Below, one piece after another: positions 1 to 5,030 of a stretch of DNA of 5,030 nucleotides (position 1 is its first letter; the number at the start of each line of letters is the position of its first letter). The translations under genes were made by a program, and so were the position numbers. This DNA is from a virus (taxonomy: Duplodnaviria > Heunggongvirae > Uroviricota > Caudoviricetes), in the IMG/VR virus record IMGVR_UViG_3300022758_000366; one strand, given 5' to 3'. Below the pieces are notes generated by a model, which saw only the letters and a program-made list of their open reading frames with translations, had not been told where the DNA came from and made no database searches.

Positions 1-1848
1 CACATGCCGGGACCATTACCGTCTATGAAGGTTCCAGACCAGGTACGCTGAATGATTTTCTCGGTGCCATGACGGAGGATGAGCCCGTCCGGAGGCACTG
101 CGCCGTTTTGAGCTGATGGTGAATGAAGTGGCACGTCATGCCGGAGCGTCATCACAGAGCGCAGCGGCGGCAAAGAAATCCGAAACTGCAGCGGCATCAT
201 CGAAGAACGCGGCGAAAACCTCAGAAACGAATGCAGCTAATAGTGCACAGGCGGCAGCGACCTCACAGACTGCATCAGAAAACTCCGCGACAGCAGCCAA
301 AAATCAGAAACCAACGCGAAAAATAGCGAGACAGCCGCAAAGACGAGCGAAACCAACGCAAAGTCCAGCCAGACGGCAGCGAAAACCAGCGAAACGAATG
401 CCAAAGACAGTGAAGCCACGCAAAAGGTGAGCGAAACAGCGGCTGCGAACTCAGCGAAAGCATCGGCAGCAAGCCAGACGGCAGCTAAAGCAAGCGAAGA
501 TGCAGCCAGAGAGTACGCAAGCCAGGCTGCGGAGCCGTATAAATATGTCTTACAGCCGCTGCCTGATGTGTGGATACCATTTAACGATTCGCTGGATATG
601 ATTACGGGCTTTTCGCCGTCATATAAAAAGATTGTTATTGGTGATGATGAAATAACGATGCCTGGCGACAAGGTTGTTAAGTTTAAACGCGCATCGAAAG
701 CAACCTATATTAATAAATCTGGTGTGCTGACAGTGGCTGCCATTGACGAGCCACGGTTTGAACGTGATGGCCTGCTTATTGAGGGGCAAAGAACGAACTA
801 CATGCTCAATTCGGAAAGCCCTGCCAGTTGGGGGCGATCGTCAAATATGGATGTTCCCGAAACCGGGACGGATAGTTTTGGTTTTACCTATGGAAAGTTT
901 GTCTGTAACGATTCTCTGATTGGGCAAACCTCAGCCATTAATATGGCATCAATTGCTGCAACAAAGTCAGTTGATGTCTCAGGCGATAATAAATACGTGA
1001 CAACCTCATGTCGTTTTAAAACAGAACTGCAGGTAAGGTTGCGTATCCGATTTGATAAATATGACGGTAGCGCAACAACTTTTCTTGGTGATGTGTATAT
1101 TGATACACAAACGCTTGAAATTAATATGACAGGCGGCGCTGCCTCAAGGATTACAGCGAGAGTCAGAAAGGACGAAGTTATCGGATGGATTTTTGCAGAG
1201 GCAACAATTCAGGCAATTGATGGGGAGTTAAAAATAGGTTCTCAGATACAGTATTCTCCTAAGCAGGGCGGGGCAACCGTATCTGGTGACTATATTTATC
1301 TGGCCACCCCACAAGTAGAAAATGGGCCTTGTGTATCATCTTTTATTATATCAGGAACGACGGCGGCGACCCGCGCAAGCGATATAGTCACAGTTCCCAT
1401 TAAGAATAATCTTTATAATCTTCCTTTTACGGTTCTTTGTGAGGTACATAAGAACTGGTATAAAACGCCAATGCAGCACCGCGTGTTTTTGATACCGGCG
1501 GTCATCAAACCGGAGCGGCTATTATTCTTGGCTTCGGTTCTTCAGCAGATTACGACGGATTTCCTTATTGCGATATTGGTGGGTCTAACAGACGGATAAA
1601 CGAAAATGCATCACTTGAAAAAAATGGTTATGGGGATGCGTGTAAAGTCTGATCAGTCTACATGCGCAGTAAGTAACGGGCGTATATCCAGCGAAACAAA
1701 AACCACATGGTCCTGTATTCAGAACACCGCAATTATCCGTATTGGAGGCCAGACTACAGCCGGGTTACGTCATTTATTTGGTCATGTAAGGAATTTCAGA
1801 ATATGGCACAAGGCATTGACTGATGCTCAGGTGGGGGAGTCAATCTAA
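1..1848 (+). CDS. stf: Side tail fibre protein (lambda Stf-like N-proximal part, Ala/Ser/Thr repeat, LamG-like distal domain); 5' end outside window; reading frame broken as sequenced
   Basis: Frame 3 at 3..113 gives HAGTITVYEGSRPGTLNDFLGAMTEDEP. Frame 2 from 83 gives ARPEALRRFELMVNEVARHAGASSQSAAAAKKSETAAASSKNAAKTSETNAA. Both peptides match my recollection of lambda Stf (HAGTITVYEDSQPGTLNDFLCAMTEDDARPEVLRRLELMVEEVAR). Frame 1 from 299 continues KSETNAKNSETAAKTSETNAK to the stop at 1597-1599. A frame-3 stretch 1482..1649 (DTGGHQTGAAIILGFGSSADYDGFPYCDIGG) and frame 1 at 1651..1848 (ending GLRHLFGHVRNFRIWHKALTDAQVGESI) look like one concanavalin/LamG-type domain. The listed ORFs 116..430, 427..1599 and 1606..1848 are pieces of this one gene; the 'M' at 427 is an internal GTG. 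Confidence 0.85.
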
Positions 1849-2156
1849 TGAAAGATTTAACACTCAAATTTCCCGACAGGGCCGACTTTTCGGCCTTTAT
1901 GGAGAGCATTGGCTATTATGATGACGAGTTGATGCAGGATGATATTCTTATTGACGTGATAGGTAACGTGTACAAAGAAACCGGAGAACTGACTGAAGAT
2001 GGCGAACCGGTATGTGTTAAGGAAGACGGATATTTTGTAAACGTGCGCATCATTATGATGCAAAAAAATCGTCAATATTCGATAAATACGCGGTTGTTGT
2101 TGAGCATCAACTTCGTGGCTGGATGTGAGGGAGACAAATGGCTACATCGACAGTAA
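1848..2156 (+). CDS. Hypothetical small acidic protein (102 aa) in the tail-fibre operon
   Basis: The ATG at 1848 overlaps the stf stop as TAATG (translational coupling). The ORF is rich in Asp/Glu and sits between two fibre genes. Its 3' end overlaps the next ORF by 19 nt in another frame. No family recognised. Confidence 0.45.
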   Translation: MKDLTLKFPDRADFSAFMESIGYYDDELMQDDILIDVIGNVYKETGELTEDGEPVCVKEDGYFVNVRIIMMQKNRQYSINTRLLLSINFVAGCEGDKWLHRQ

Positions 2157-2842
2157 TTCCAGGAGATATCACCACGCTAAAGGGAGATGTCAGTAAAACT
2201 AAGGAAGAGATTTCCTCAATTAACGGAAAAGTATCAACGCTTCAGACTGATATGACCAGTGCAAAGCAGGATATCAGCACCAGATACACAAAAACTGAAG
2301 TTGATAATAAGCTGAAAAACAAAGTGGAAGTGAACGATCTGGAAAGTGGTCGTTATGGCGGAGATTTTTATCCACTGACAGGTCGTGAAGCGTTTTATTT
2401 ATGGAATTTGGCCACGACTACAGCGGCGGCAAACCTTTATCTTAATCCTGACCCCGCAATTTCGTCTGTACTGCGGTCAACATCATCTATCCGCTATAAA
2501 CATTCAGTAGAGACAATAGATTCAGAGCACGCCGATCTCATTTTCAGGATGCGCCCTGTGTGGTACAGGTCGCAATGCGAAAATGACAGGCGTGACTGGG
2601 GATTCTATGGATTGATTGCCGAGGAAGTTGGAGAAATTGCCCCTCAGTTTGTTCACTGGCGACCAGCCAACGAAGATGATGCACCGGAAACCATTTCCAG
2701 CAATGGCCTTGTTGCCGAAGGTGTAATGTACGAACGTCTGGTTGTTCCACTGATTCACCATATCCAGAAACTGACTGAAAGAGTTGATGAACTTGAGTCA
2801 GAGTTAAAGTTGTTATCCGTTTCCCGAAGCGATATCGGATAA
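2138..2842 (+). CDS. Tail fibre/spike-type protein with C-terminal intramolecular chaperone auto-processing (peptidase S74-like) domain
   Basis: GAGGGAG lies about 5 nt upstream of the ATG at 2138, and a frame-2 stop sits at 2126-2128 just before it. The N-terminal half is heptad-like (DITTLKGDVSKTKEEISSINGKVSTLQTD). The C-terminal region SSIRYKHSVETIDSEHADLIFRMRPVWYRS...WGFYGLIAEEVGEIAPQFV...GVMYERLVVPLIHHIQKLTERVDELESELKLL follows the consensus of the endosialidase/T5 LtfA chaperone domain (S-x-x-R-x-K ... GxIAQEV..P ... Y..LvPLl..iqeL...LE). Confidence 0.8.
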   Translation: MATSTVIPGDITTLKGDVSKTKEEISSINGKVSTLQTDMTSAKQDISTRYTKTEVDNKLKNKVEVNDLESGRYGGDFYPLTGREAFYLWNLATTTAAANLYLNPDPAISSVLRSTSSIRYKHSVETIDSEHADLIFRMRPVWYRSQCENDRRDWGFYGLIAEEVGEIAPQFVHWRPANEDDAPETISSNGLVAEGVMYERLVVPLIHHIQKLTERVDELESELKLLSVSRSDIG

Positions 2843-2852
2843 AGGAGGAGTA

Positions 2853-3140
2853 ATGGATATAACACCTTTTCTTCATGCGCTTTGTGCTGTGGCTGCGCAG
2901 GTACTGATTGGCCTTTTTACCGGAAACTGGGCTTACGGTGCGATAGCCGGTTGTACGTTCTTCATTGCGCGTGAACACACCCAGGCAGAATATCGCTGGA
3001 TTGAAATGTTTGGGCATGGCAAGAGGATTAACATGCCGTGGTGGGGCGGTTTTGATCCGCGCGTGTGGGATGTGGCAAGCCTGATGGATTTTGCTGTGCC
3101 GGTGGTGGCGTGTCTGCTGATCTGGATGTTGATCCGTTAA
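2853..3140 (+). CDS. Small integral membrane protein (95 aa, about three hydrophobic helices); moron-position gene, possible superinfection-exclusion or lysogenic-conversion function
   Basis: A strong Shine-Dalgarno AGGAGGAG at 2843-2850 precedes the ATG at 2853. Hydrophobic segments are FLHALCAVAAQVLIGLF, WAYGAIAGCTFFIA and VASLMDFAVPVVACLLIWMLI. It lies between the tail-fibre genes and the att site and is followed by a hairpin. No lipobox. Confidence 0.6.
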   Translation: MDITPFLHALCAVAAQVLIGLFTGNWAYGAIAGCTFFIAREHTQAEYRWIEMFGHGKRINMPWWGGFDPRVWDVASLMDFAVPVVACLLIWMLIR

Positions 3141-3485: not shown

Positions 3486-3547
3486 CGGTCTCGAAAACCG
3501 GAGTGGGGGCAACTCCACCGGGGGTTCAAATCCCCCTCTCTCCGCCA
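3486..3547 (+). other. 3' portion of a tRNA-Ser(CGA) gene (anticodon stem-loop to CCA); not a complete tRNA; att core
   Basis: CGGT-CTCGAAA-ACCGG gives an anticodon loop with anticodon CGA. A long class-II variable arm AGTGGGGGCAACTCCAC follows, then T arm GGGGG-TTCAAAT-CCCCC, acceptor 3' strand TCTCTCC, discriminator G and CCA. Nearly identical to my recollection of E. coli serU from the anticodon stem onward. The upstream sequence TTTTTCGACTCTGTATCAT cannot form the acceptor 5' strand or D arm. Confidence 0.8.
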
Positions 3548-3592: not shown

Positions 3593-3628
3593 CTTGGAAT
3601 TACTTGGAATATTTTCTTGGAATATTTT
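3593..3628 (+). repeat. Three tandem direct repeats CTTGGAAT(T/A)TT(TT): putative integrase arm-type binding sites (P' arm)
   Basis: Units at 3593-3602, 3603-3615 and 3616-3628. The same 11-mer recurs at 3374-3384 and inverted at 3435-3446. The repeats overlap the last codons and stop of the int fragment. Confidence 0.55.
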
Positions 3629-3945
3629 CAGGTAACGGGACATCAAGTGTTGGTGAAACTTTAACCTTCCTGTCATAGATTAGCACTTGCCCTTCGGTTT
3701 TGTGACCAGAGAAAAGTTGCTTATCCCGGCTGCTTCCTTCATAGTCTGAAATTCCTTTCGCCTTCAGATCATGAAAGGTGAAGTCGGTTAAAATACCTGA
3801 AATTTTTCCAGCACGATTTCTTGCTTCTACCCACATTTCGTTAAAGCCTTTGTACATATATCGGTTGCCGTATTGATTGCTGATCACATAGGCAGATTTT
3901 GGTAACTGTTTTGCTTTTCGATCGCTGCCTGTAATCGTGGACTCC
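3600..3945 (-). pseudogene. int: Tyrosine integrase (lambda Int family), C-terminal fragment only; N-terminal and core-binding domains absent
   Basis: The C-terminal ~100 residues of the 3600..4199 ORF (AYVISNQYGNRYMYKGFNEMWVEARNRAGKISGILTDFTFHDLKAKGISDYEGSSRDKQLFSGHKTEGQVLIYDRK) align by eye with the lambda Int C-terminus (TFHELRSLSARLYEKQISDKFAQHLLGHKSDTMASQYRDDR), including the His, the GHK His and the Tyr nucleophile. The Arg of H-x-L-R is Lys here. Nothing upstream resembles the first catalytic Arg/Lys region. The 3' end abuts the att site. The boundary at ~3945 is approximate. Confidence 0.7.
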
Positions 3946-4407
3946 ATGCTTTTATCTGTATCTTTATCTGTCGTGACTCGTCGTGACATGTGCGTGACAT
4001 TTCGTGACGCGCCGTGACAATCGCCATTTTGTTCCCGCTTTCTTTCCCTCTCTCGCTGCGCCCTCTTGCGCTCTGCAGGAGATTTTGCGGTTTGCGAAAT
4101 ATTGCCGTTGTCCTCTTTAAGCACCTGGCGTTTTTCCCATCCAGTGATTAAATCACCATCAAGTACCCGCCCCTGCATCGTCTGCAAAATTTGAATCAAT
4201 TACCTCTTCTGTCACGTCGAGCGCACTTGCCAAATCTTCTGTCGTGACATCAATGTGACCTCGCGTGACATTTCGTGACGCGCTCACCAGGAGGTGGATA
4301 TACACTGCCATCACTGTTGCAATTGGCTGCCCTGACACCCTGGCAATTGTTCGCCACTTAGGGTCATTTGGCATGTCATGCCATAATCTGAGCCAGGCGT
4401 TAGCCAT
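3946..4407 (-). CDS. Putative phage replication initiator (YdaU/DUF1376-like N-terminus, from memory), frameshifted and continuous with the int fragment
   Basis: ATG at 4407 with SD GAGGTGAG. The N-terminus MANAWLRLWHDMPNDPKWRTIARVSGQPIATVMAVYIHLL resembles the W..Y....DPK N-terminal motif I recall for DUF1376/YdaU-like initiators. A frame change lies near 4160-4200, after which the sequence continues as QGRVLDGDLITGWEKRQ...ERKRAQRERERK. Iteron-like repeats are embedded in the coding sequence. Sits immediately downstream of a YdaT-like gene, as in the Rac ydaS-ydaT-ydaU-ydaV module. The 3' boundary is approximate. Confidence 0.45.
3972..4279. repeat. Iteron-like CGTGAC direct repeats with ~10-11 bp phasing (putative replication origin inside the initiator gene)
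   Basis: CGTGAC starts at 3972, 3982, 3993, 4003 and 4013, then at 4243, 4254 (TGTGAC), 4264 and 4274, with an inverted GTCACG at 4211-4216. An identical 21-mer GCGTGACATTTCGTGACGCGC occurs at 3992-4012 and 4263-4283. An AT-rich block with TATCTG repeats lies at 3948-3970. Confidence 0.55.
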
Positions 4408-4479
4408 ACTCACCTCTTCTGATACCGAATCTTTTTTACTCACGAGTTGCCGGAAGCGATTCGATATGGCTATTATCAC

Positions 4480-4904
4480 TCAATGCACTGCCACAGCATT
4501 TCCTGCCGGGCCACCACGGTTCATCTGATTGAAACCGGCGATTGCCACTGCGACAAAATCATCGGCGTCTCTCACCAGTCGCTCCCGCGTCTCCACCAGC
4601 TCCCGAAATAAGCTGAACTGTGGCTACGCATTCTGGCCACCAGCAAAGGTGGCATTGCCTTTTCGATCGCTGGTACAACGCCTGAATTTTTTCAACTGCA
4701 TCAGGGGTGTCTTTCTCTACCCAGCGGAAAATTTTCTGGGTATTGCGAGCCAGGGCTTCCGGATGGCTGTCGTCGTACAGTTCAGGAAACGTCATACCCA
4801 ACTCAAAATAAGCCTGGGTTATTCCAGCTGCCGGAACTTTTTTCGCCATCAGGACGCGCCCAGGCATTCATCGCCATGCGGATGTGTTCATGCTTGATTT
4901 TCAT
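4480..4904 (-). CDS. YdaT-like protein (Rac prophage ydaT family, assignment from memory), interrupted by two frame changes as sequenced
   Basis: ATG at 4904-4902 is preceded by AAGGGGGG. The frame gives MKIKHEHIRMAMNAWARPDGEK, then after the T6 run at 4838-4843 a second frame gives VPAAGITQAYFELGMTFPELYDDSHPEALARNTQKIFRWVEKDTPDAVEKIQALYQRS, and a third frame (ELVETRERLVRDADDFVAVAIAGFNQMNRGGPAGNAVAVH) ends at the stop 4480-4482 just before the next gene's RBS. Removing two single-base insertions gives 141 codons, which matches my recollection that YdaT is 140 aa. Confidence 0.45.
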
Positions 4905-5030
4905 GAATCCCCCCTTGGTTAGAAGGCGGATTATGATCAGAACCGGGAATGACAACCGTCGGTATGTGTAACTCATATTTGAGCGCCCCCGGCAGTGACT
5001 GCCTGAATTAGCAACGCCCATTTCCACGGC

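What the first reader, a model, noticed from the sequence alone, without database searches (positions are those of the whole stretch)
1848..2842. Stand-alone short fibre protein with an intramolecular-chaperone domain, plus a coupled acidic ORF
The S74-type chaperone domain is normally the self-cleaving C-terminus of a large fibre or spike. Here it ends a separate 234-aa coiled-coil protein downstream of stf. That protein is preceded by a 102-aa acidic ORF that starts on the stf stop (TAATG) and overlaps the next gene by 19 nt. These could be a second short fibre or tip protein with its chaperone, or one gene split by another indel.
Basis: partly seen in the sequence, partly recalled or inferred. 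Interest (0 to 1): 0.45.

Follow-up and report, generated by a model that had tools for sequence, protein, structure and literature searches.

The report
Swappable second side-tail-fibre gene
The 234-aa gene most likely encodes a short second tail fibre with its own self-cleaving folding domain; this gene set is common in E. coli prophages and T1-like phages, and the odd 102-aa overlapping ORF is that set's usual 93-aa gene damaged by a one-base deletion.

Summary
ORF 1848-2156 (102 aa, pI 4.5) starts on the stf stop (TAATG) and overlaps the 234-aa ORF (2138-2842) by 19 nt. The 234-aa protein has heptad hydrophobic spacing near its N-terminus and a C-terminal Peptidase_S74 chaperone domain, with S116 and K121 conserved.

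The 102-aa length and the overlap come from a 1-bp deletion at 2054/2055. I found that deletion in no other sequence. In every intact relative checked, the small gene is 91-100 aa (93 aa in the E. coli prophages) and separate from the next gene (9 nt before its ATG in those prophages). So "one gene split by an indel" is refuted.

The same three genes occur in about 720 of 5,426 complete E. coli genomes, in lambdoid phages and in virulent T1-like phages. They are a fibre ending in a lectin-like domain, the ~93-aa gene, and a short fibre. The third gene is an exchangeable cassette with at least three alleles that share only their first 15-27 residues. Two alleles end in S74 domains and one in a T4 gp37-like tip followed by tfa. 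That points to a second fibre rather than an Stf chaperone.

The ~93-aa family always follows the lectin-type fibre, sometimes with no second fibre, so it probably serves that domain. Its function is unknown. This is a known kind of system, and the copy here looks decayed or mis-assembled.

The parts
116..1848 (+). Distal two-thirds of stf (side tail fibre), broken into three reading frames here. Its distal half is a lectin-like domain.
   Evidence: The pieces are ORFs 116-430, 427-1599 and 1606-1848. Intact relatives are 790-800 aa, for example L002 3864-6248. Single-base indels relative to L040 and L001 lie at 407, 1469 and 1618, all in homopolymer runs. The distal half is homologous to the RcGTA head spike fibre Rcc01080 (PDB 6tb9, E 1.3e-12). 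It matches NCBIfam GTA_spike_fiber, and the last 80 aa weakly match Laminin_G_3.
1848..2156 (+). Small acidic ORF, 102 aa here. It is a frameshifted copy of a conserved 93-aa gene (PHROG family phrog_1361).
   Evidence: The ATG overlaps the stf stop. It is 93 aa in every E. coli prophage locus where it is intact and 91-92 aa in the T1-like phages. The family is under purifying selection, dN/dS 0.30. Its AlphaFold2 model is confident (pLDDT 82) but has no informative structural neighbour.
2054..2055 (+). Site of the 1-bp deletion (AA to A) that shifts the small ORF's frame and creates the 19-nt overlap.
   Evidence: Shown by alignments to L001, L002 and L040. The lost C-terminus holds invariant residues I69, F78, R90 and W92. 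This exact allele is absent from the viral, genome and metagenome collections and from the complete E. coli genomes.
2126..2137 (+). Ancestral TGA stop of the 93-aa gene (2126-2128), followed by a 9-nt spacer GGGAGACAA that carries the ribosome-binding site of the next gene.
   Evidence: The sequence shows this directly. The 9-nt spacing is constant in the E. coli prophage loci.
2138..2842 (+). Gene for the 234-aa short fibre protein: conserved N-terminal peptide, heptad-repeat helix, small distal segment and S74 chaperone domain.
   Evidence: Based. dN/dS is 0.16. Homologues are mostly stand-alone proteins of 220-270 aa.
2138..2181 (+). First ~15 codons (MATSTVIPGDITTLK). This N-terminal peptide is shared by all alleles and lies inside the conserved recombination flank. 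It is the proposed docking peptide.
   Evidence: DNA homology between loci with the 234-aa and 346-aa alleles runs through the first ~44 nt of the gene and then stops. The proteins share only residues 1-27, at 70% identity. The same motif heads the third, gp37-like allele.
2162..2281 (+). Predicted helix (residues 9-48) whose hydrophobic residues fall at heptad a/d spacing. Read as a coiled coil.
   Evidence: The monomer model has a helix at residues 9-48. Heptad register was counted. There are weak matches to the P22 gp26 needle and other coiled-coil families.
2318..2482 (+). Distal segment, residues 61-115 (SGRYGGDFYPLTG...NLYLNPDPAISSVLRST). This is what would remain at the tip after self-cleavage.
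   Evidence: It is conserved, with N99 invariant and T94 and R113 nearly so. pN/pS is 0.16. The monomer model is unreliable here (pLDDT below 50). In other phages the same segment plus the chaperone domain ends longer fibres.
2483..2839 (+). Intramolecular chaperone (Peptidase_S74) domain, residues 116-234. The proposed cleavage Ser116 is at 2483-2485 and Lys121 at 2498-2500.
   Evidence: PF13884 matches at E 7e-6. K121 is invariant, and S116, S117 and Y120 are conserved in at least 90% of 33 sequences. pLDDT is 84-97 over residues 121-230. Foldseek hits are MyRF ICA 7dc3 (E 4e-5), then 3gud (E 0.03) and 3gw6 (E 0.13). The sequence also matches the chaperone end of a T5-type L-shaped tail fibre, 8hqz_d (E 2.8e-7).
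2853..3140 (+). Gene for a 95-aa hydrophobic protein (phrog_1443). It marks the right-hand conserved flank of the cassette. It may not belong to the fibre module.
   Evidence: Homology between allele types resumes exactly at its ATG. It follows both the 234-aa and 346-aa alleles in lambdoid prophages. It is absent from the T1-like loci. dN/dS is 0.17. It matches no Pfam, NCBIfam or PADLOC family.

Best explanation
**What it is.** The 234-aa gene encodes a real but short second side-fibre subunit. It is neither a fragment of stf nor a helper that folds Stf.

**Proposed anatomy (inferred).**
- Residues 1 to about 15-27 form a conserved peptide that docks the protein onto the phage's side-fibre apparatus.
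- Residues 9-48 (possibly to about 60) form a trimeric coiled coil.
- Residues 61-115 form a small distal segment.
- Residues 116-234 are an S74 intramolecular chaperone. It would trimerise and fold the distal segment, then cut itself off at Ser116, with Lys121 as the general base.

**The locus is a cassette (shown).** Everything after the first ~15 codons, up to the next gene's ATG (window ~2182-2852), is swapped between phages. Each alternative tip brings its own folding aid, either an S74 domain or a separate tfa gene.

**The upstream small gene.** It is normally 93 aa, separate and translationally coupled to stf. It most likely serves the lectin-like distal domain of Stf, either as an assembly factor or as a small structural partner. 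It may also provide the docking site for the second fibre.

**State in this window.** The small gene has lost its conserved C-terminus to a private 1-bp deletion. stf carries three more single-base indels. So the module is either inactive in a decaying prophage or the assembly contains homopolymer errors.
For: **S74 chaperone domain**
- Pfam match above threshold.
- K121 invariant and S116 in at least 90% of 33 homologues.
- Confident model of residues 121-230, with fold hits to known chaperone domains.
- Sequence match to a T5-type fibre's chaperone end.

**Separate genes**
- The small gene is 93 aa, with a 9-nt spacer, in every intact E. coli prophage locus. It is 91-100 aa and separate in the other phages and distant relatives checked.
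- The window's deletion is mapped and private to this sequence.

**Cassette behaviour**
- At the same position, the first set of 80 prophage loci carries the 234-aa type in about 45 and an unrelated 346-aa protein in about 22. The second set, which partly overlaps the first, gives 26 and 49.
- The two share only residues 1-27, and the 346-aa protein also ends in PF13884 (E 1e-13).
- A third allele (L127) has the same N-terminal motif, a gp37/Stf-like tip and a downstream Tfa.
- The homology break points are sharp.

**The tip plus chaperone is a genuine fibre end**
- It also terminates longer fibres with other N-terminal anchors, and no 93-aa gene is called next to those.

**Conserved gene trio**
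- It is orthologous in virulent T1-like phages: Stf distal part 44% identity, small protein 53%, S74 protein about 60%.
- It also follows a fibre with a P2-like N-terminus.
- All genes are under purifying selection, dN/dS 0.16-0.30.
- No promoter-like site on the + strand separates the genes.

**Co-variation**
- A distant lineage of the small protein goes with a different N-terminal motif on the second fibre, MANRIDT.

**The small gene goes with the fibre's lectin end**
- In the eight distant lineages examined where the upstream protein could be read, it directly follows a fibre ending in the same kind of lectin-like (Laminin_G) domain; in the closer ones that end carries the RNFRIWH motif.
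- Three of these lineages have no second fibre immediately after it (L168, L170, L173).
Against: - Nothing here shows that the protein is in virions, trimerises or is cleaved.
- The only available model is a monomer, and it is unreliable for residues 58-115.
- The mature product of this allele would be only 115 aa with no recognisable receptor-binding domain. It could be a stub rather than an adhesin.
- Annotators of T1-like BASEL phages labelled the orthologue 'putative lateral tail fiber chaperone'.
- What the N-terminal peptide docks onto is unknown.
Confidence: 0.68

Rival explanations
1. The 234-aa protein is a chaperone acting on a different protein. It would help the upstream Stf or lateral fibre to fold and would not be part of the virion. 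This is the reading implied by the GenBank label on the BASEL phage orthologues.
For: - The only recognisable domain is a chaperone domain.
- This allele has no obvious receptor-binding domain.
- The gene always sits in the fibre operon.
- The orthologue is labelled 'putative lateral tail fiber chaperone'.
Against: - From established knowledge of endosialidase, T5 pb1 and MyRF, S74 domains act on their own polypeptide.
- The position is also filled by alleles with a ~200-aa tip plus S74 domain, or a gp37-like tip plus tfa. Those are fibres, not chaperones.
- The same tip and chaperone end other fibres elsewhere.
- Lectin-type fibres exist with the small gene but without this gene.
Confidence: 0.12
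2. The 93-aa protein is a structural adaptor or hinge. It would sit on the Stf distal domain and hold the N-terminal peptide of the second fibre, rather than act as an assembly chaperone. This rival concerns only the small ORF and is compatible with the main explanation.
For: - It lies between the two fibre genes.
- The N-terminal motif of the second fibre changes together with the lineage of the small protein: MATxTxIP against MANRIDT.
Against: - Three lineages keep the small gene with no second fibre directly after it (L168, L170, L173).
- The fold match is too weak to count as evidence.
Confidence: 0.3
3. The two ORFs are one gene split by an indel, or the 234-aa ORF is a dead leftover of an older stf 3' end.
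For: - The window does carry several single-base indels.
- In intact relatives the two ORFs happen to be in the same frame, separated by TGA plus 9 nt.
- The protein matches the C-terminal part of a long PHROG profile, phrog_3299 positions 1147-1384.
Against: - The stop codon and spacer are conserved in every intact E. coli prophage locus.
- In KarlJaspers the two genes overlap in different frames.
- The gene has its own ribosome-binding site and ATG.
- It is under purifying selection, dN/dS 0.16.
- It is kept in compact virulent phage genomes.
Confidence: 0.03

Closest known systems
L-shaped or lateral tail fibres of T5-like phages (T5 pb1; DT57C-type LtfA, PDB 8hqz chain d)
   Same: They end in a C-terminal S74 intramolecular chaperone with the same Ser and Lys motif (LQGTSGIEYKKDV against LRSTSSIRYKHSV) and carry 'YTKTEVD' shaft motifs. 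From my own knowledge, their fibres are built from more than one protein.
   Different: Those proteins are 1,000-1,400 aa with large receptor-binding domains. This one is 234 aa, with about 55 residues ahead of the cleavage site. It sits behind a lectin-type fibre and a 93-aa gene.
Intramolecular chaperone domains of K1F endosialidase (3gw6), GA-1 neck appendage (3gud) and MyRF ICA (7dc3)
   Same: The fold of residues ~120-230 and the Ser...Lys pair with the same spacing.
   Different: Sequence identity is only 11-25%. In those proteins the domain follows a triple beta-helix or a large enzyme. Here it follows a helix with heptad spacing and a short segment of unknown fold.
Orthologous trio in T1-like Drexlerviridae (KarlJaspers bas06_0037/0036/0035; SECphi27 gp81/80/79)
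   Same: Same three genes in the same order: 44%, 53% and about 60% identity.
   Different: The fibre's N-terminal anchor differs. There is no 95-aa membrane protein downstream. The third gene is labelled 'putative lateral tail fiber chaperone' or 'chaperone of endosialidase'. The cassette evidence here does not support a trans-chaperone reading.
Lambda Stf-Tfa (fibre plus downstream assembly protein)
   Same: The N-terminal domain of the fibre matches (PF08400). A small gene directly follows the fibre gene. One allele at the third position uses a gp37/Stf-like tip with a true Tfa.
   Different: The 93-aa protein shows no similarity to Tfa. The Stf distal end here is a lectin-like domain, not the gp37-like tip.
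RcGTA head spike fibre Rcc01080 (PDB 6tb9)
   Same: It is homologous to the distal half of the upstream Stf (E 1.3e-12 over about 240 residues).
   Different: It decorates a capsid rather than a tail. I did not look for a 93-aa or S74 partner there.

Membership tests
Peptidase_S74 / intramolecular chaperone auto-processing domain | Profile match to PF13884 above the curated threshold | tested here: met
   26.7 bits against a cut-off of 22, E 7e-6, residues 116-172 covering profile positions 1-57 of 58.
Peptidase_S74 / intramolecular chaperone auto-processing domain | Conserved Ser and Lys at the cleavage site, Lys five residues after Ser | tested here: met
   S116 and K121. K121 is invariant and S116 is present in at least 90% of 33 homologues. 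The 346-aa allele has SDRDLK with the same spacing. That this spacing is the catalytic pair rests on my knowledge of endosialidase Ser911/Lys916.
Peptidase_S74 / intramolecular chaperone auto-processing domain | Characteristic fold of the chaperone domain | tested here: met
   pLDDT is 84-97 over residues 121-230. The top Foldseek hit is MyRF ICA 7dc3 (E 4e-5, probability 1.00). 3gud (E 0.03) and 3gw6 (E 0.13) follow with weaker scores.
Peptidase_S74 / intramolecular chaperone auto-processing domain | Trimer formation and self-cleavage that releases the domain | not testable with these tools
   Only single-chain prediction was available. Testing needs a multimer prediction, SDS-PAGE or mass spectrometry.
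Phage tail fibre (structural, trimeric) | Fibre-like shaft and placement in a tail-fibre operon with an anchoring N-terminus | tested here: met
   Hydrophobic residues at heptad spacing over residues 11-46. It is the third gene of the stf operon with no + strand promoter-like site in between. The N-terminal peptide is shared by all alleles.
Phage tail fibre (structural, trimeric) | Presence in the virion and binding to a host receptor | not testable with these tools
   I found no proteomic or genetic data on this family in the literature searches.
Tail fibre assembly proteins (Tfa / Caudo_TAP; Mu gpU, P2 gpG type), considered for the small acidic ORF | Sequence or profile similarity to known Tfa families | tested here: not met
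   No Pfam or NCBIfam hit. The PHROG family is of unknown function. hhalign against a true Tfa gave probability 0.1%. There was no PDB sequence hit.
Tail fibre assembly proteins (Tfa / Caudo_TAP; Mu gpU, P2 gpG type), considered for the small acidic ORF | Gene directly downstream of, and coupled to, the fibre gene it serves | tested here: met
   In the prophages the start overlaps the stf stop. In the eight distant lineages where the upstream protein could be read, it directly follows a fibre ending in a lectin-like domain.

The most novel reading that the evidence does not exclude
The lectin-type fibre end, the ~93-aa protein and the conserved N-terminal peptide may together form a portable branching joint. 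Such a joint would let phages of different tail types (lambda-like, T1-like, P2-like) plug in interchangeable second receptor-binding fibres. The ~93-aa family would then be a new class of fibre adaptor or chaperone, unrelated to Tfa, gp38 or gp57A.
Probability: 0.3. Interest if true: 0.5.

Novelty: new member of a known kind. Interest (0 to 1): 0.3.

Why it matters
Fibre genes decide which bacteria a phage or an engineered phage particle can attach to. If the third gene is a second fibre on a conserved docking peptide, tips could be swapped simply by keeping the first ~15 codons. Nature appears to do this already, with at least three tip types. It would also correct database labels that call the orthologues chaperones. 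The ~93-aa family is an uncharacterised partner of a widespread lectin-type fibre end and is worth testing. For this particular window the result is mundane: a common prophage module, damaged or mis-assembled.

Tried and rejected
**Leads that gave nothing**
- Literature searches for this module found no experimental work. I tried BASEL papers, S74 in coliphages, chimeric Stf engineering, Drexlerviridae cryo-EM and virion proteomics.
- For the 93-aa protein, Pfam, NCBIfam and PADLOC gave no hit.
- BFVD returned only uncharacterised phage proteins.
- hhalign against a true Tfa was negative, and a PDB profile search was negative.
- An exhaustive profile search found only 66 clusters of similar small proteins.
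- The exact deletion allele was not found in viral, genome or metagenome contigs, nor in complete E. coli genomes. So I could not tell a real mutation from an assembly error.

**Ideas considered and rejected**
- Programmed readthrough of the TGA that separates the two in-frame ORFs in intact relatives. I rejected it because KarlJaspers has the genes in different frames.
- The 234-aa ORF as a relic of an old stf end. I rejected it because of purifying selection and its conservation in virulent phages.

- A trimer structure prediction could not be run, because the tool folds single chains only.
Full report
**1. What is in the window**

The window reads like the right end of a lambda-like prophage.
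- stf is broken into three frames (116-430, 427-1599, 1606-1848).
- A small acidic ORF follows (1848-2156, 102 aa), then a 234-aa ORF (2138-2842) and a 95-aa hydrophobic ORF (2853-3140).
- Next come the last 62 nt of a tRNA-Ser gene (3486-3547; no complete tRNA) and an integrase C-terminal fragment on the minus strand.
- From about 3951 there is a truncated replisome-organiser gene, then ydaT and a cro-like gene.

- The TAATG start/stop overlap and the 19-nt overlap are there.
- The small ORF has pI 4.47.
- SSIRYKHS lies at residues 116-123.

**2. The 102-aa length and the overlap come from a deletion**

The region 1600-3200 matches prophages in 1,906 of 5,426 complete E. coli genomes. In 718 of them the match covers at least 80% of the region.

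In annotated relatives the order is stf (about 790 aa, intact), a 93-aa hypothetical protein, a 234-aa 'tail fiber domain-containing protein', and a 95-aa hypothetical protein.

Alignment shows the window lacks one A at 2054/2055 (ATTAATGATG becomes ATTATGATG). This has three consequences:
- The last 25 residues of the 93-aa protein are replaced. They include the invariant I69, F78, R90 and W92.
- The ORF runs past its ancestral TGA (2126-2128).
- That overrun creates the 19-nt overlap.

In every E. coli prophage locus where the small gene is intact, it is 93 aa and ends 9 nt before the next ATG. It is 91-92 aa in the T1-like phages and 91-100 aa in distant relatives. So the two ORFs are not one gene split by an indel.

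The deletion allele was not found in the IMG/VR contigs, the species-representative genomes, the JGI metagenomes or the complete E. coli genomes. Other rare frameshift variants with the same out-of-frame tail do exist (P0201 and P0216).

The window has five single-base indels relative to its closest relatives, at 407, 1469, 1618, 2054 and 3914. All lie in homopolymer runs. This fits either a decaying prophage or homopolymer sequencing error. Only the reads can decide.

**3. The 234-aa protein**

- **Chaperone domain, sequence.** Residues 116-172 match Peptidase_S74 above threshold.
- **Catalytic pair.** In a 33-sequence alignment K121 is invariant, and S116, S117 and Y120 are conserved in at least 90% of sequences. 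The Ser-to-Lys spacing equals that of the endosialidase catalytic pair (my own knowledge).
- **Best PDB sequence match.** This is the chaperone end of a T5-type L-shaped tail fibre (8hqz_d, E 2.8e-7).
- **Chaperone domain, fold.** A single-chain AlphaFold2 model is confident for residues 121-230. Its best fold matches are known intramolecular chaperone domains: MyRF 7dc3 (E 4e-5), then GA-1 3gud (E 0.03) and endosialidase 3gw6 (E 0.13).
- **N-terminal helix.** Residues 9-48 are modelled as a helix, and hydrophobic residues over 11-46 fall at heptad a/d spacing.
- **Distal segment.** Residues 58-115 are poorly modelled. That may be because the segment folds only as a trimer. I could not test a trimer.

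**4. The gene is an exchangeable fibre cassette**

Homologues are mostly stand-alone proteins of 220-270 aa.

Among the prophage loci, the gene after the 93-aa ORF is one of two types:
- the 234-aa type, or
- an unrelated 346-aa protein that shares only residues 1-27 (70% identity). It also ends in an S74 domain, after a tip region of about 200 residues (PF13884 at E 1e-13).

A third allele (L127) begins MATVTTIPADITNLK, continues as a T4 gp37/lambda Stf-like receptor-binding region, and is followed by a true Tfa. Its upstream fibre has a P2-type N-terminus but the same lectin-like end.

DNA homology between allele types runs through the stf 3' end, the 93-aa gene and the first ~44 nt of the third gene. 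It then stops and resumes exactly at the ATG of the 95-aa gene. In window coordinates the variable cassette is about 2182-2852.

The distal segment plus chaperone domain of the 234-aa type also ends longer fibres with other N-terminal anchors in unrelated phage contexts. No 93-aa gene is called next to those.

Taken together, the third gene is a second fibre with a conserved N-terminal docking peptide and interchangeable tips. Each tip brings its own folding aid. This argues against the 'lateral tail fiber chaperone' label given to the T1-like orthologues.

**5. The trio is conserved across phage families**

T1-like phages (KarlJaspers, SECphi27 and many others) carry the same three genes away from the main tail module.
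- The fibre's distal part is 44% identical over 535 aa.
- The small protein is 53% identical.
- The S74 protein is about 60% identical.

The Stf distal half is homologous to the RcGTA head spike fibre Rcc01080 (6tb9, E 1.3e-12) and ends in a Laminin_G-like region. So Stf probably binds a glycan itself.

Pairwise dN/dS values are 0.30 (93-aa gene), 0.16 (234-aa), 0.25 (346-aa) and 0.17 (95-aa). No promoter-like site on the + strand separates the genes.

**6. The 93-aa protein**

It has a confident small alpha/beta model (pLDDT 82) but no informative relatives.
- Pfam, NCBIfam and PADLOC gave nothing.
- The PHROG family is of unknown function.
- BFVD returned only uncharacterised phage proteins.
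- There is no similarity to Tfa.

An exhaustive profile search found only 66 clusters, almost all of them small proteins or fragments of 36-150 aa.

I looked up the genomic context of nine distant members.
- In the eight where the upstream protein could be read, the gene directly follows a fibre ending in the same kind of lectin-like domain. The start usually overlaps the fibre's stop.
- A second fibre follows in L167, L174, L086 and L087. A glycine-rich 314-aa gene follows in L172. A 375-aa gene follows after a 59-aa ORF in L169.
- No second fibre directly follows in L168, L170 or L173.
- In the L167/L174 lineage the second fibre starts MANRIDT instead of MATxTxIP. So its N-terminus changes together with the upstream pair.

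I infer that the small protein primarily serves the lectin-type fibre end, as an assembly factor or a bound partner. It may also contribute the docking site. This is neighbourhood evidence only.

**7. Verdict**

- The S74 assignment and the 'second short fibre' reading are supported.
- The 'split gene' reading is refuted.
- The idea that the acidic ORF is the short fibre's chaperone is not supported.
- The module is common and of a known kind, a multi-protein side fibre with an intramolecular chaperone. Its members are uncharacterised.
- The copy in this window looks inactive or mis-assembled.

Noticed in passing
window 116-1848 (indels at 407, 1469, 1618): stf is broken by three single-base indels relative to L040 and L001, all in homopolymer runs. 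The pair at 1469 and 1618 shifts the frame out and then back. With the indels at 2054 and 3914, that makes five in about 3.5 kb. This means either prophage decay or homopolymer sequencing error.
   Followed up: partly
window 2853-3140: A 95-aa hydrophobic protein (phrog_1443) with apparently three membrane-spanning stretches. It follows both cassette alleles in lambdoid prophages but is absent from T1-like phages. It is under purifying selection (dN/dS 0.17) and matches no known family, including defence-system models. Its function is unknown.
   Followed up: partly
window 3486-3547: An exact copy of the last 62 nt of a tRNA-Ser gene with no complete tRNA. It lies between the fibre module and an integrase fragment. 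This is the layout of an unsplit phage attachment site, not of a prophage end.
   Followed up: partly
window 3600-5030, minus strand: An integrase C-terminal fragment (with a 1-bp deletion at 3914) is joined at about 3950 to a truncated replisome-organiser gene, followed by ydaT and a cro-like gene. In the lambda map as I recall it, the replication genes run in the same direction as stf. Here they run the opposite way, which suggests a rearranged or composite remnant.
   Followed up: partly
window 3967-4018 and 4238-4279: Two clusters of CGTGAC-containing repeats (TCTGTCGTGAC and following), 261-271 nt apart, with inverted partners at 4210-4221. They lie inside the replisome-organiser reading frame and look like origin iterons.
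   Followed up: no
L002 6248-7243 (intact relative); window 2126-2140: In intact E. coli prophages the 93-aa and 234-aa ORFs are in the same frame, separated only by TGA and three codons (GGG AGA CAA). Readthrough would therefore fuse them. In KarlJaspers the genes overlap in different frames, so a required fusion seems unlikely.
   Followed up: partly
L127 1295-5512: Here a fibre with a P2-type N-terminus carries the same lectin-like end as this Stf. It is followed by a 92-aa family member, a second fibre with the MATVTTIP start and a gp37-like tip, and a true Tfa. This shows the module moves between tail types.
   Followed up: yes
L002 3864-6248; window 427-1848: The distal half of this Stf type is homologous to the head spike fibre of the Rhodobacter gene transfer agent (Rcc01080, PDB 6tb9, E 1.3e-12). 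This links a capsid decoration to a tail side fibre.
   Followed up: partly
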